The position numbers and the translations under genes were made by a program. This document shows, piece after piece, positions 1 through 64,000 of a DNA stretch of 64,000 bases. Origin of the DNA: a virus; the IMG/VR virus record IMGVR_UViG_3300027896_000014, positions 32,001-96,000 of that record; one strand, written 5' to 3'. The notes under the pieces were generated by a model. It had not been told where the DNA came from. It searched no databases and saw only the letters and a list, made by a program, of their open reading frames with translations. The stretch's first letter is position 1; each line of letters opens with the position of its first letter.

Positions 1-446
1 AAATGTTCCTGCTGGTGATGGACCCCAACCAGGCCTTTAACCTTCGCCGCAACACGACATCGATGGATTGGGCGGATATTCAGAAGGCAATCGCCACAGC
101 AGTAGGCAGAGATACCCCATTTCTCAAGGGTGGCCTTGGGATGTGGAATGGTGTGGTCCTTCACAAGCACCAGAACTGCATCCGATTTACCGCTTATAAC
201 ACCCTCGGTAGCCCAACGGGAGGCGCTATCGCCGCAACAAGGGCAATCTTTTGCGGACTTCAGGCAGGAGCCATGGCCTTCGGGTCGCCAGGACAGGATC
301 TTCGGTTCGGATGGAACGAAGAAGGAAGGGACAACAATAACCGGGTAGTCATTTCATCGCATACCATTTGGGGGTTCAAGAAAGTGACCTTCAATGGAAA
401 CGACTTCGGTGTGATAGCTATCGACACTGCGGCAGTTAAGCCATAA
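1..446 (+). CDS. Major capsid protein, N4-gp56/DUF4043 family (C-terminal part; 5' end outside window)
   Basis: Motifs GGLGMWNGVVLHKH, RAIFCGLQAGAMAFG, W.EE.RD..N and KKVTFNG.DFGVIAIDTAA are typical of this capsid family. Confidence 0.88.
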   Translation, partial: MFLLVMDPNQAFNLRRNTTSMDWADIQKAIATAVGRDTPFLKGGLGMWNGVVLHKHQNCIRFTAYNTLGSPTGGAIAATRAIFCGLQAGAMAFGSPGQDLRFGWNEEGRDNNNRVVISSHTIWGFKKVTFNGNDFGVIAIDTAAVKP

Positions 447-475
447 GAAACTAAAAAGAAAGGAGGTAAAGCAAA

Positions 476-1030
476 ATGGCAAAAACACTTCAAATAGCAC
501 CTGACCTTTATTCCAGACCACCTAAGACTGCGATTCCGGGGGCTCGGTGGGATTTTCGATCAATTGCCGTGACAGCGGCGCAGGTTGTAGTGACTGTTGC
601 CAACAACGCTATCATTGCTTTAGGGATCCTCCCTATCGGACATAGACTGTCAAGTTTTTTCGTAGAAACGGACGCTCTCGATAGTGGGACCCCAACCATC
701 GTTTTTGATATTGGGATTGTCAACAGTTATTACGGCCAGCCTGCGGCAAGTGCAACAACTCCTGGATTTGATACTGGAACGGCTCCGGCGTTGGTTTCCA
801 GTAGTGTTGTATTACCCGACAGAACCATCGTATACGGGAATATCCTCACTGGGGCGGTTATTGCCAAAACGGGGGGAAGGGTAGACACCCTTGCATTGGC
901 GGCTTCCATGAATAAAGTAAACGTGGATAACTACCACGACAGGATTATCGCCATCAATATTACAACCGTAGCTTCAGCGGGCGCCCAAGCCGGAAATATG
1001 GGGATCGGGTACGGCATCGACATCGATTGA
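476..1030 (+). CDS. Putative capsid decoration/cement protein
   Basis: Directly after the MCP with a strong RBS (AAGGAGG); beta-rich, LP.GHRL...DALDSG...FDIG pattern. Confidence 0.6.
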   Translation: MAKTLQIAPDLYSRPPKTAIPGARWDFRSIAVTAAQVVVTVANNAIIALGILPIGHRLSSFFVETDALDSGTPTIVFDIGIVNSYYGQPAASATTPGFDTGTAPALVSSSVVLPDRTIVYGNILTGAVIAKTGGRVDTLALAASMNKVNVDNYHDRIIAINITTVASAGAQAGNMGIGYGIDID

Positions 1031-1050
1031 TGCTTTTAGAAAACGACTGA

Positions 1051-1079
1051 ATGGGACTACCACAGAAAGGTAGTCCCAT
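1051..1079 (+). terminator. 11-bp stem-loop after the capsid genes (terminator or mRNA-stabilising hairpin)
   Basis: ATGGGACTACC-acagaaa-GGTAGTCCCAT; no clear U-tract. Confidence 0.5.
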
Positions 1080-1104
1080 AACTTCACGATAAAGGAGAAA
1101 TACG

Positions 1105-1611
1105 ATGATTATCGAATGCCTCACGAAAAGAGTAGGTATTACTATGGTTGAAATAGGCAAGGTAAAGTATCTCTTTCAGCCCCCCCAAGGAGCCAAAAAG
1201 GGAGAGTTTACCACGTCCATCGCCGAGGTAACGGCAGAGGAGCACGTGAACTACCTTCTCAACCACACGAGAGGAAACTTTAGGGAATACGACCCAGAGC
1301 GGACACTGAATGAAATGACAGAGGCGAGGAAACAAATGAATATTTTCCTTGGTTTCAGCATACCCAAGTACAAGCATGGTGGAACGGAAGGTTATGTTGT
1401 GATGGATTTTAGAAAGCCGAATAAACCTCGCTATGCTGGCATGGACGGAAACTGGGTTGAAAAATGGGAAGGGATGACCCCGTTTCTCCATGAAATAGAG
1501 GCTTGGGAATGGTTGAAGGAAGAGGCACCGCTACTGGCTATGGAGGAGCGGGAAAGTCCTCCAAAACCACCCGATATCCCTGTTCAGCGGGTTCTGAAAG
1601 AACCGAAATAG
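1105..1611 (+). CDS. Hypothetical head-region protein
   Basis: 168-aa ORF with RBS AAGGAG, colinear in the operon. Confidence 0.6.
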   Translation: MIIECLTKRVGITMVEIGKVKYLFQPPQGAKKGEFTTSIAEVTAEEHVNYLLNHTRGNFREYDPERTLNEMTEARKQMNIFLGFSIPKYKHGGTEGYVVMDFRKPNKPRYAGMDGNWVEKWEGMTPFLHEIEAWEWLKEEAPLLAMEERESPPKPPDIPVQRVLKEPK

Positions 1612-1624
1612 GAAGAGTTCGTAA

Positions 1625-62253: not shown

Positions 62254-62606
62254 GTCGGGTCCGCTATTTCTTCTTTAAAGGCCGGGATTGTGACGGTATT
62301 GCCGGCTGTTAAGACTTGGGATGTGCAGGTGGTTGTAAGTTTGATCACACCGCCCAAACTTAAAACAATGTGCAGAGCAGTTCCGCTCCCCGTCACAGAT
62401 ACGCCAGCCTTTTGTGCCGTAGTTATTTTACGGCCAGATGAATCCCCTTCTGCGATTGCATAATCCCCAGGGGCCATCGCAACATAAGCGAGGGTATTAG
62501 TTAAGTCGGTTGGAGTAGTTACATCACTGGTTACATCCACACGAGTGCAGGCTTGGACTACGCCAAGAGCTGCATCCAATACAGCATCTGCTACCGATTT
62601 ACCCAT
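62250..62606 (-). CDS. Small tail/fibre-anchoring protein
   Basis: MGKSV.D.VLDAAL...GD.SGRK.T...SGTA.H..L...GNTV.IPAF..EIADPT. Confidence 0.7.
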   Translation of the reverse strand: MGKSVADAVLDAALGVVQACTRVDVTSDVTTPTDLTNTLAYVAMAPGDYAIAEGDSSGRKITTAQKAGVSVTGSGTALHIVLSLGGVIKLTTTCTSQVLTAGNTVTIPAFKEEIADPT

Positions 62607-62700
62607 TTTCTTCCTCCTCAATTTTTATTCCGTGACTGATGATTACGTCCTGGACCTCAAGGACGATATCCTTTTTCTCCTCTTTCTTTTCCTCTTCCAT
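62599..62700 (-). CDS. 33-aa acidic peptide
   Basis: AGGAGG RBS; MEEEKKEEKKDIVLEVQDVIISHGIKIEEEENG. Confidence 0.45.
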   Translation of the reverse strand: MEEEKKEEKKDIVLEVQDVIISHGIKIEEEENG

Positions 62701-62709
62701 CGAATCCTC

Positions 62710-63852
62710 CTATCGTTTTCTATGTGTTATTGGATCAACCATTGCCCTGAATGATTCTAGGTCAAAGTCGGCTCCATCAAGGTTTCTTATCACGAAGGAC
62801 ATAAATCTGTTCTTCAATCCCCGTGGAAATTTGACCCTTTCTTCCCCGGAAAAAGTCCCATTTGTATTCAGGACCCTTGTTATCGGATCTATTCTTCCCT
62901 CATCAAGGATAAGTTGTATGGAAATTGGCCCCCCTCTTTTTACGATCCATCCTTCTCGAAGTCGCTTTATGACATCCCTCCACAAATCCTCAGTCCCAGT
63001 TTGGATTGCGCTATCAATCCTGACCCCAGCATCATCATCTCCATCTAAAAGAAAAATCCCTTGCTCAGAGGCTCCAATGTACATACCGAGTCCATGATAG
63101 TCGCAAAAGGAGTTAAAAGAATATCCAGAGTAGTCTGTAACCCCAAAATGGCTCAAATTCATCACAAATCCCTTTCGAGTCGAAACAAATGCCGGGATGT
63201 CAAGTGCGACATTGAATGCCTGAAACTCCTTTATTTCAAGCCATGGGTCAATAAATGGGATATCCAGGGCAAATACCAGTTGATTCTGGTGAACAAAGGT
63301 AGCAGAAAGCGTTAGGGCAGGAATTTCAATCGCCCCACTGAGAATACCACCAGATATTAAGGTTCCTGATAATTCTAAAGTTGGAACCTTAATCGCTCCA
63401 CTGACTAAACTCCCCGATATAACGGTTCCAGATAATTTCAGGGCCGGGATGTCAATCTCTCCCCTGAATATATTTCCAGATTTAATGCCCCCAGATAATC
63501 TCAGGGCTGGAATGACAAGTGCGGCATCAATCTTAGTATGAATAATCTGAAGAGAAACCTCTATTGCCGGAATGTCAAGCGAGGCATCCATCTCGTTACG
63601 AGGAGCAATCCTAAAAGAAAGCTTTACTGCCGGCATGGGGAGAGAAGCAGATAGCTTCTCCCCGCTTTTTATGGTAGCAGAGACTTCCAGAACAGGGACT
63701 TCAAGTGGAAAGTTGAGTACCGCTCCCTGCGAGATACTGGCACCCAATTCTATGGCAGGGATATCTAGATTAACCGAAATGACACTCCCACTAATATCAA
63801 GTTCGGTCTCTATGGCAGGTAAATTAAGTGCAAACCACAGGGTATTGGCCAT
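62710..63852 (-). CDS. Tail protein: about 22-aa L.IPA..L repeats fused to a tail-tubular-like C-terminal domain
   Basis: Repeats followed by VMNL.HFGVT.Y..Y.FNSF...G....GI..L.GDDD.G..I...R.K..RG...R. Confidence 0.65.
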   Translation of the reverse strand: MANTLWFALNLPAIETELDISGSVISVNLDIPAIELGASISQGAVLNFPLEVPVLEVSATIKSGEKLSASLPMPAVKLSFRIAPRNEMDASLDIPAIEVSLQIIHTKIDAALVIPALRLSGGIKSGNIFRGEIDIPALKLSGTVISGSLVSGAIKVPTLELSGTLISGGILSGAIEIPALTLSATFVHQNQLVFALDIPFIDPWLEIKEFQAFNVALDIPAFVSTRKGFVMNLSHFGVTDYSGYSFNSFCDYHGLGMYIGASEQGIFLLDGDDDAGVRIDSAIQTGTEDLWRDVIKRLREGWIVKRGGPISIQLILDEGRIDPITRVLNTNGTFSGEERVKFPRGLKNRFMSFVIRNLDGADFDLESFRAMVDPITHRKR

Positions 63853-63861
63853 TCACCCACC

Positions 63862-63999
63862 TTATGTCTTGGAAGTGGGTAACGTCAGTGAGAACGTATT
63901 GACGGTTGAGACGGCCGCAGCGGTAATCGTCGATGGATCAATCGTTGCGTCTCCACCCACGGTAGCAAGTGTTCCCTGAACCCGTTTGAGAACGTAGGT
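63862..63999 (-). CDS. C-terminal end of a tail structural protein (truncated by the window)
   Basis: Open frame ...KRVQGTLATVGGDATIDPSTITAAAVSTVNTFSLTLPTSKT-TAA. Confidence 0.55.
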   Translation of the reverse strand, partial: TYVLKRVQGTLATVGGDATIDPSTITAAAVSTVNTFSLTLPTSKT

Positions 64000-64000
64000 T

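What the first reader, a model, noticed from the sequence alone, without database searches (positions are those of the whole stretch)
1..64000. Two distinct tail/ejection modules converge on one integration/immunity region
Seen: a + strand module (capsid, nozzle, fibres, ejection proteins, polyvalent giant) and a - strand module (different tail proteins, spike, ejection proteins, second giant) flank one early region, one integrase and one att core, with no host genes. Inference A: a single phage genome encodes two alternative tail/injection machines, possibly for two hosts or receptors. Inference B: two prophages sit in tandem at tRNA-Glu. The shared arm-like repeats on both sides of the core, the absence of a recognisable endolysin at the end of the right module, and the shared blocks between the two giants favour A or very close relatives.
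Basis: partly seen in the sequence, partly recalled or inferred. Interest (0 to 1): 0.85.

Follow-up and report, generated by a model that had tools for sequence, protein, structure and literature searches.

The report
Two phage genomes joined in one contig
The "phage with two tail machines" is really two complete, different temperate phages of the same peat bacterium strung together in one 145-kb database record at a 499-base stretch they share, most likely by the assembler, so it is ordinary.

Summary
The window is bases 32001-96000 of a 145,243-bp IMG/VR record that holds two complete, different temperate phage genomes.

- **Phage 1** (60.7 kb) supplies the window's + strand module. Its integrase, attP (3' end of host tRNA-Gln), terminase and portal, and the start of its capsid gene, lie left of the window.
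- **Phage 2** (84.3 kb) supplies the - strand module, most of the early region, the integrase and the tRNA-Glu attP. Its terminase, portal and capsid genes lie right of the window.
- **Relatives:** each type occurs alone elsewhere, as a 62-kb terminally repeated complete genome and as an 88-kb genome.
- **The join:** the two genomes meet at a 499-nt stretch that is 100% identical in both (window 31500-31998, and 60,731 nt upstream). That is longer than the apparent assembly k of 127.
- **Independent assembly:** a MEGAHIT contig gives phage 1 alone (60,504 nt) and stops inside this repeat at both ends.
- **Record's end:** it shows the same kind of loop, through a 3.1-kb IS whose end is also joined to host chromosome sequence.

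Most likely this is an assembly concatenation of two co-resident phages (about 70%). A real recombinational cointegrate is not excluded (about 20-25%). Low interest.

The parts
1..28360 (+). Phage 1 late/virion module: capsid gene 3' end (1-446), structural and internal-virion proteins, a 1721-aa protein (5023-10188), a 2139-aa giant (14473-20892), a fibre-like protein (22562-23812), and late-end genes including a papain-like peptidase (27569-28360).
   Evidence: PHROG and Pfam hits. Partly colinear with the 62-kb DTR genome G001: tblastn matches for most genes from the large terminase to the 517-aa protein and for the fibre N-terminus, but not for the two giant genes. 100% identical to the ENA contig k141_3238633 where sampled.
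28363..28381 (+). 19-nt element ACGGGTTGACCTCATTCCT in the convergent gap between phage 1's late and early-left operons. A second exact copy lies in phage 2 at C1 141930.
   Evidence: Also present in G006 (exact) and G005 (1 mismatch) with unrelated flanks. Absent from 55 genomes of the host's order. Native at this spot, since the ENA contig has the same gene order. Function unknown.
28492..31832 (-). Distal end of phage 1's early-left operon: small ORFs, an MBL-fold protein (29241-29963), RecT (30266-31252) and an HNH endonuclease (31269-31832).
   Evidence: Homologues of g001/g003/g004 at C1 100-3101. Pfam RecT, HNH_3 and Lactamase_B_2 were assigned on those homologues and in ENA's annotation.
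31500..31998 (.). Repeat E: 499 nt that are 100% identical to C1 2769-3267, which lies 60,731 nt upstream and outside the window. This is the junction between the two genomes.
   Evidence: The ENA MEGAHIT contig equals C1 3137-63640, so both its ends lie inside E.
31999..39299 (.). Phage 2 early region: the 596-aa protein (apart from its 3' end, 31807-31998, which lies inside repeat E) and the genes up to the divergent switch near 38.3 kb.
   Evidence: Colinear with the 88-kb genome G005; several proteins are 72-100% identical.
40517..41632 (+). Phage 2 tyrosine integrase (int2).
   Evidence: PHROG 1, E 1.7e-43. 65% identical homologue at the same place in G005.
41762..41806 (-). Phage 2 attP core: the 3' 45 nt of tRNA-Glu(CTC).
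   Evidence: Sequence read. Single copy in the contig. 100% identical to the tRNA-Glu of the Thermodesulfobacteriota MAG G007, whose contigs break there.
41867..64000 (-). Phage 2 late/virion module (distal part): a 2409-aa polyvalent giant (42642-49871), then proteins of 695, 956, 573, 166, 655, 312, 608 and 380 aa. It continues right of the window to the capsid, portal and terminase genes.
   Evidence: LPD1 domain. PHROG structural hits. Colinear with G005, 39-98% identity.

Best explanation
The window straddles the join between two independent temperate phage genomes that sit in one 145-kb metagenomic contig.

- **Phage 1** is about 60.7 kb (C1 2769-63499, counting repeat E once). It is a podovirus-like phage with a 933W/Heva-type portal. 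It carries int1 and an attP matching the host tRNA-Gln, and it contributes the window's + strand module.
- **Phage 2** is about 84.3 kb (the rest of the circle, including a 3.1-kb IS). It carries int2 and the tRNA-Glu attP, and it contributes the - strand module.

Both phages probably infect the same Thermodesulfobacteriota host. They share a recently exchanged 499-nt identical patch in their homologous RecT/HNH early modules.

That patch is longer than the assembler's k, so the assembly graph is a figure of eight. The assembler walked phage 1 as a loop inside phage 2. The same thing happened at the contig's ends, where the phage circle was walked as a loop on an IS whose end is also joined to host chromosome sequence.

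Shown:
- two full gene sets;
- stand-alone relatives of each type;
- both attP sites intact;
- the exact repeat at the join;
- an independent assembly that breaks there.

Inferred: the join was made by the assembler rather than in the cell.
For: **The contig**
- It is 145,243 bp. Its first 127 nt recur at 144991-145117, followed by 126 further nt.

**Two gene sets**
- Integrases: C1 11237-12421 and 72517-73632.
- Large terminases: 17706-19253 and 120610-122220 (57% identical).
- Portals: 21269-23560 and 110791-112599 (the second a weak family match).
- Capsid genes: 31319-32446 and 102982-103941 (the second a weak family match).
- RecT/HNH modules: 100-5707 and 61241-66540.

**Stand-alone relatives**
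- G001 (62,041 bp, DTR, CheckV 100%) matches only the phage 1 virion genes.
- G005 (88,038 bp, 94% complete) is colinear with C1 61.2-139.4 kb, including across int2-attP and the giant gene.

**attP sites**
- attP2 is 45 nt identical to the host tRNA-Glu 3' end.
- attP1 is 21 nt, starting 22 nt after the int1 stop, identical to the host tRNA-Gln 3' end.
- Both are flanked by phage DNA on both sides, and the host MAG's contigs break at both tRNAs.

**The join**
- A 499-nt exact repeat lies at C1 2769-3267 and 63500-63998. It splits the circle into loops of 60,731 and 84,259 nt.
- ENA MEGAHIT contig k141_3238633 (60,504 nt) equals C1 3137-63640. It is 100% identical over the 17 kb sampled and stops inside the repeat at both ends.

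**The contig's end**
- The last 112-126 nt are host DNA: the promoter and start of a response-regulator/HD-GYP gene next to pilT/pilU.
- They follow directly on the right 17-nt terminal inverted repeat of a 3,117-nt IS. This is a second example of loop traversal through a repeat.

**Literature**
Against: - No reads could be examined. Nothing therefore shows directly which flanks are paired across the 499-nt repeat. A true cointegrate gives the same assembly graph.
- Both phages encode RecT, so recombination at a 499-nt identity is mechanistically easy.
- The assembler may have had read pairs spanning the repeat.
- The assembler and k = 127 are inferred from the 127-nt terminal overlap and from JGI's usual practice (my own knowledge). 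They are not documented for this record.
- The MEGAHIT contig probably comes from the same or a sister sample, so it is independent as software but not as biology.
Confidence: 0.7

Rival explanations
1. A real heterodimeric cointegrate. The two co-resident phage circles recombined once, by RecT- or host RecA-mediated homologous recombination, within their 499-nt identical patch. This gave a 145-kb circle, or two phage genomes nested or in tandem in the cell, and the contig reports it correctly.
For: - The contig exists as a continuous path without Ns.
- Both phages carry RecT.
- The 499-nt identity lies inside about 800 nt of 97% identity.
- The two loops have the same GC content, 0.450 and 0.451.
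Against: - The join coincides with the only internal repeat longer than k, which is exactly where graph ambiguity arises.
- A second assembler did not cross it.
- 145 kb is far above the genome sizes of either type (62 and 88 kb), so it could not be packaged as such.
- The contig's end shows another repeat-driven excursion, into host DNA.
Confidence: 0.22
2. Two prophages integrated in tandem at the host tRNA-Glu.
For: - Two phage genomes are adjacent.
- The tRNA-Glu-derived core next to int2 is real and matches a host tRNA.
Against: - The tRNA-Glu core occurs once, and there is no intact tRNA-Glu in the contig.
- Its two flanks are the same phage 2 genes as in the free 88-kb relative, so it is an attP, not an attL, attR or hybrid site.
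- Phage 1 uses a different core, from tRNA-Gln, and it is also unrecombined.
- The only host DNA in the contig is attached to an IS end, not to an att site.
Confidence: 0.03
3. One 145-kb phage that encodes two alternative tail/injection machines.
For: Both modules sit on one record that CheckV rates complete. The giants share blocks.
Against: - Everything is duplicated, not only the tails: terminase, portal, capsid, integrase, attP and the RecT module.
- Each half matches a stand-alone genome.
- The halves meet at an exact repeat.
Confidence: 0.02

Closest known systems
Chimeric or concatenated viral contigs from de Bruijn-graph metagenome assembly (Roux et al. 2017, PMC5610896)
   Same: Two co-occurring viruses share a highly similar region, the join falls exactly at an exact repeat longer than k, and a more conservative assembler (MEGAHIT) breaks there.
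   Different: Both partners are present in full, as a figure-of-eight walk, rather than as a partial swap. Read-level proof is missing.
Polylysogeny, tandem prophages and phage cointegrates formed by homologous recombination
   Same: There are two temperate phages of probably one host, each with an integrase and a tRNA-derived attP. They share a recombination (RecT) module and a recently exchanged patch.
   Different: There are no attL/attR junctions, and both attP sites are intact. In the host MAG the two target tRNAs lie 14.5 kb apart on one contig, so a double lysogen would not be a tandem.
Ralstonia phage Heva/Eline, Serratia phage Parlo and Stx-converting (933W-type) podoviruses of about 55-63 kb
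   Same: The phage 1 portal is 37-40% identical over 84-95% of its length, the genome size is similar, and both are temperate.
   Different: The relationship is distant, with no DNA-level similarity to any deposited phage. The host is a Thermodesulfobacteriota bacterium from peat.
IMG/VR UViG 3300038426_000075 (88 kb) and BPP-1-type large terminases
   Same: Phage 2 is colinear with the 88-kb UViG over about 78 kb. Its TerL is 44-49% identical to those of BPP-1, Acidovorax AP1 and Limnohabitans DC33.
   Different: The integrase is only 65% identical and the UViG lacks the tRNA-Glu core. The early module is mosaic.
Polyvalent proteins of phages (Pfam LPD1, PF18796)
   Same: The 2409-aa protein carries an LPD1 domain (E 9.6e-20) and sits at the distal end of the virion module.
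   Different: No LPD domain was detected in the 2139-aa giant of phage 1. The two share only a BRX-like block and an N-terminal region.

Membership tests
Single phage genome (one virion, one packaging/head set) | One terminase, one portal and one major capsid gene per genome | tested here: not met
   Two of each are present, the second portal and capsid as weak family matches, plus two integrases and two RecT modules.
Tandem prophages at one attB | The same att core repeated at the left, middle and right junctions, with host DNA outside | tested here: not met
   The tRNA-Glu core and the tRNA-Gln core each occur once. The flanks of both are phage DNA.
Assembly concatenation (chimeric contig) | The join coincides with an exact repeat longer than the assembly k | tested here: met
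   The exact repeat is 499 nt, against a 127-nt terminal overlap taken as k.
Assembly concatenation (chimeric contig) | Each part equals a complete genome that exists on its own | tested here: met
   The loops are 60,731 and 84,259 nt. The stand-alone relatives are 62,041 nt (DTR, 100% complete) and 88,038 nt. The MEGAHIT contig has the length of loop 1.
Assembly concatenation (chimeric contig) | Reads or read pairs do not support the contig's pairing of flanks across the repeat | not testable with these tools
Temperate phage with a tyrosine integrase and tRNA-derived attP (phage 2) | Integrase next to a core identical to the 3' end of a host tRNA | tested here: met
   int2 hits PHROG 1 at E 1.7e-43. 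The 45-nt core starts 130 nt downstream of it and is 100% identical to the tRNA-Glu(CTC) of MAG G007.
Temperate phage with a tyrosine integrase and tRNA-derived attP (phage 1) | Integrase next to a core identical to the 3' end of a host tRNA | tested here: met
   int1 hits PHROG 1 at E 1.2e-43. The 21-nt core starts 22 nt after its stop and is identical to the tRNA-Gln(CTG) 3' end of G007. The match is short, so support is moderate.
Insertion sequence / transposon (C1 142002-145118) | Terminal inverted repeats enclosing a transposase gene, present in more than one context | tested here: met
   There are perfect 17-nt TIRs. The right end is joined to phage DNA at the contig's start and to host DNA at its end.
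Insertion sequence / transposon (C1 142002-145118) | DDE transposase of a named IS family, and a target-site duplication | tested here: inconclusive
   Pfam hits are marginal: DDE_Tnp_IS1 at 24.7 bits against a cutoff of 24.1, and IS240 below its cutoff. No duplication is visible at the phage copy.
Polyvalent protein (LPD-containing giant) | An LPD domain within a multi-domain protein of more than 2000 aa | tested here: met
   The 2409-aa protein has LPD1 at E 9.6e-20. The 2139-aa protein has none detected.

The most novel reading that the evidence does not exclude
The 145-kb molecule is physically real. It would be a heterodimeric cointegrate of two different temperate phages, fused by RecT-type recombination at a freshly shared 499-nt patch. 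It would persist as an episome or nested element in a Thermodesulfobacteriota host, and could act as a staging ground for module exchange between phages with different virions.
Probability: 0.2. Interest if true: 0.35.

Novelty: not a real feature. Interest (0 to 1): 0.1.

Why it matters
A phage with two injection machines would have been remarkable, but the evidence says it is not one.

The practical value is as a curation warning. An IMG/VR record rated 'linear, 100% complete' is in fact two genomes plus a scrap of host DNA. Genome-size, gene-content or host-range inferences drawn from it would be wrong.

Minor positive results:
- The record yields two new temperate phages.
- Three sequence links point to a Thermodesulfobacteriota MAG from SPRUCE peat as the probable host: the two tRNA-derived attP cores, and host chromosome DNA attached to the end of the IS carried in phage 2.
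- The 499-nt identical patch is a clean example of very recent sequence exchange between two otherwise about 80% identical RecT modules.

Tried and rejected
**Hypotheses considered and dropped**
- *The 19-nt direct repeat (C1 60363 and 141930) is the att or cointegrate junction*. Dropped for three reasons:
  - the same late-end/19-mer/early-end order is native in the phage-1-only MEGAHIT contig;
  - G005 has the element at the homologous place in a free genome;
  - 55 genomes of the host's order lack it.
- *The contig's last 126 nt are a prophage-host attR*. Dropped because the break falls exactly at the outer end of a 17-nt terminal inverted repeat of an IS, and no att-like identity is present.

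**Searches that found nothing**
- Megablast of both modules against deposited phages.
- A genome-contig scan with the 175-aa IS passenger protein.
- Viral-contig scans with the phage 1 peptidase and with the sigma-r4/alpha-CTD protein.
- A scan with the left arm of the 19-mer, which found only G005.
- Exact-protein look-ups of the peptidase and of the 661-aa and 596-aa proteins.
- PDB sequence searches of three large virion proteins.
- Capsid searches in the host MAG (phage 2 capsid) and in its order (phage 1 capsid).

**Weak or unavailable**
- ESM Atlas gave only weak leads.
- The ENA record cannot be searched whole.
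Full report
**Where the window lies**

The window is bases 32001-96000 of a single 145,243-bp virus record. IMG/VR classes the record as linear and CheckV rates it 100% complete. The contig's first 127 nt recur at 144991-145117, and 126 unrelated nt follow. ARAGORN finds no tRNA in the window. In the whole contig it finds only a tRNA-Met and a tRNA with anticodon GCT. Neither structural module has DNA-level similarity to any deposited phage.

**The observation**

- A + strand late block runs to window 28360.
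- A - strand late block starts at 41867.
- Between them lie early genes, one tyrosine integrase (40517-41632) and one att core.

The core (41762-41806, - strand) is the 3' 45 nt of a tRNA-Glu(CTC) and is unique in the contig.

The two giants (2139 and 2409 aa) share a 111-aa block at 59% identity, which Pfam labels BRX-like, and an N-terminal region at 34%. The larger giant carries an LPD1 polyvalent-protein domain.

Most other 'tail/spike/ejection' labels rest on position only. PHROGs, Pfam, PDB sequences and the Atlas gave little.

**Two of everything**

| Function | Set 1 (C1) | Set 2 (C1) |
|---|---|---|
| Tyrosine integrase | 11237-12421 | 72517-73632 (the window's) |
| Large terminase | 17706-19253 | 120610-122220 (57% identical to set 1) |
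| Portal | 21269-23560 | 110791-112599 (weak family match) |
| Major capsid gene | 31319-32446 | 102982-103941 (weak family match) |
| MBL-fold/RecT/HNH early module | 100-5707 | 61241-66540 |

The two weak matches (E about 1e-6) are backed by 93-94% identity to G005 at the same places. The two early modules are about 81% identical in DNA over 3 kb.

**Stand-alone relatives**

IMG/VR holds relatives of each half on their own.
- G001 (62,041 bp, direct terminal repeats, 100% complete) matches most phage 1 genes from terminase to tail and nothing of the other module.
- G005 (88,038 bp, 94% complete) is colinear with C1 61.2-139.4 kb. The colinear stretch includes the int2 homologue (65%), the gene beside the att (94%), the giant, capsid (94%), portal (93%) and terminase (84%).

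The int2-att-late-gene contiguity is kept in G005, so the tRNA-Glu site in the window is an unrecombined attP.

**Host and second attP**

The contig's last 112 nt are 98-100% identical to bacterial metagenome contigs and to a Thermodesulfobacteriota MAG from SPRUCE peat. There they form the promoter and start of a response-regulator/HD-GYP gene downstream of pilT/pilU.
- That MAG's tRNA-Glu(CTC) 3' 45 nt equal the window's core exactly.
- A 21-nt stretch starting 22 nt after the int1 stop (C1 12443-12463) equals the 3' end of its tRNA-Gln(CTG).
- The MAG's contigs break at both tRNAs, and one 14.5-kb contig spans from one to the other.

Each phage therefore has its own int-attP module, aimed at a different tRNA of the same probable host. 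Both attP sites are intact in the record.

**The join**

My first candidate for the junction was a 19-nt exact direct repeat at C1 60363 (window 28363) and C1 141930. The element also occurs in G006 and G005 with unrelated flanks, but not in 55 genomes of the host's order.

An exact-protein look-up then found an ENA MEGAHIT contig (k141_3238633, 60,504 nt). It has the same order across the 19-mer, and its two ends are 100% identical to C1 63640-55241 and C1 11707-3137. It is therefore C1 3137-63640, which is phage 1 alone. The 19-mer is native there and is not the junction.

Both ends of that contig lie inside a 499-nt stretch that is 100% identical between C1 2769-3267 and C1 63500-63998 (window 31500-31998). 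It is the longest repeat in the record. It is followed by one mismatch and 119 more identical nt.

This repeat cuts the 144,990-nt circle into loops of 60,731 and 84,259 nt. Those sizes match the stand-alone relatives.

**The contig's ends**

C1 142002-145118 is bounded by perfect 17-nt inverted repeats (TGGTAGTGGGTCAGTTT and its complement). It holds a DDE-transposase-like gene with marginal Pfam hits, the GCT tRNA and three small ORFs. The 127-nt terminal overlap is the last k-mer of this element. After it the path forks into phage DNA (the contig's start) or host DNA (the contig's end). The host-side homology in an independent contig begins within 1 nt of the element's tip.

My reading, as inference, is that the IS carried in phage 2 also has a copy, or a junction, beside the host response-regulator gene, that the copies collapse in the graph, and that the assembler walked the phage circle as a loop and then stepped 126 nt into the host branch.

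**Interpretation**

A real cointegrate and two separate circles that share the 499-nt patch give the same de Bruijn graph.

I favour assembly concatenation (about 70%) for these reasons:
- the join is exactly at the only internal repeat longer than k;
- a second assembler stops there;
- the same record shows another repeat-driven excursion;
- each loop is a complete, right-sized temperate phage with its own attP;
- 145 kb fits neither capsid type.

A true RecT-mediated cointegrate remains possible (about 20-25%). Reads could not be obtained to decide.

**Verdict**

The window shows two ordinary, new temperate phages of a peat Thermodesulfobacteriota bacterium, joined in one record at a shared repeat. 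The 'two tail machines in one phage' is not a real feature.

Noticed in passing
C1 142002-145118 (window coordinates 110002-113118, outside the window): A 3,117-nt IS/transposon with perfect 17-nt terminal inverted repeats. It carries a DDE-transposase-like gene, a tRNA with anticodon GCT and three small ORFs. Its right end is joined both to phage DNA, where it cuts the stop codon off the phage 2 MBL-fold gene, and to the host response-regulator promoter. No target-site duplication is visible at the phage copy, which hints at an IS-mediated deletion or fusion.
   Followed up: partly
C1 ~145035-145070, - strand (inside the 127-nt terminal repeat): A tiny ORF, MDDWWWWWW-stop, with a Shine-Dalgarno-like sequence. 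It lies upstream of the 175-aa IS passenger gene and looks like a tryptophan-sensing leader peptide. It was not tested.
   Followed up: no
window 28363-28381 and C1 141930-141948: An identical 19-nt element (ACGGGTTGACCTCATTCCT) occurs in four phage contexts with unrelated flanks. In G005 and G006 it forms the right half of an 8-bp inverted repeat. It is absent from 55 genomes of the host's order. Its function is unknown; a terminator, an operator or a recombination hotspot at a module boundary are all possible.
   Followed up: partly
window 31500-31998 and C1 2769-3267: A 499-nt patch is 100% identical inside RecT/HNH modules that are otherwise about 74-91% identical. This is a sign of very recent exchange between two co-resident phages that both encode RecT.
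   Followed up: yes
Host MAG G007 contigs C80, C74 and C147 (loci L078, L079, L085, L086): The two target tRNAs, Glu(CTC) and Gln(CTG), lie 14.5 kb apart at the two ends of one MAG contig. The assembly breaks at both, as expected if both sites are polymorphic for prophages in that population.
   Followed up: partly
window 26344-26787 and C1 124169-124654: A 147-aa protein in phage 1 and a 161-aa protein in phage 2 are 77% identical. No family was assigned. This is a second shared cassette outside the early module.
   Followed up: no
C1 132455-134167 (window coordinates 100455-102167, outside the window): Phage 2 encodes a 570-aa protein whose N-terminal 230 aa match the C-terminal (nuclease) part of a terminase-large-subunit PHROG (E 7.5e-22). 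This is in addition to its true TerL.
   Followed up: no
window 55234-55490 and 7687-9252: Long, near-exact internal repeats lie inside virion genes: 121 nt repeated at a 129-nt period in the 573-aa protein, and 108-155 nt repeated 1.4 kb apart in the 1721-aa protein. This is typical of modular fibre-like proteins.
   Followed up: no
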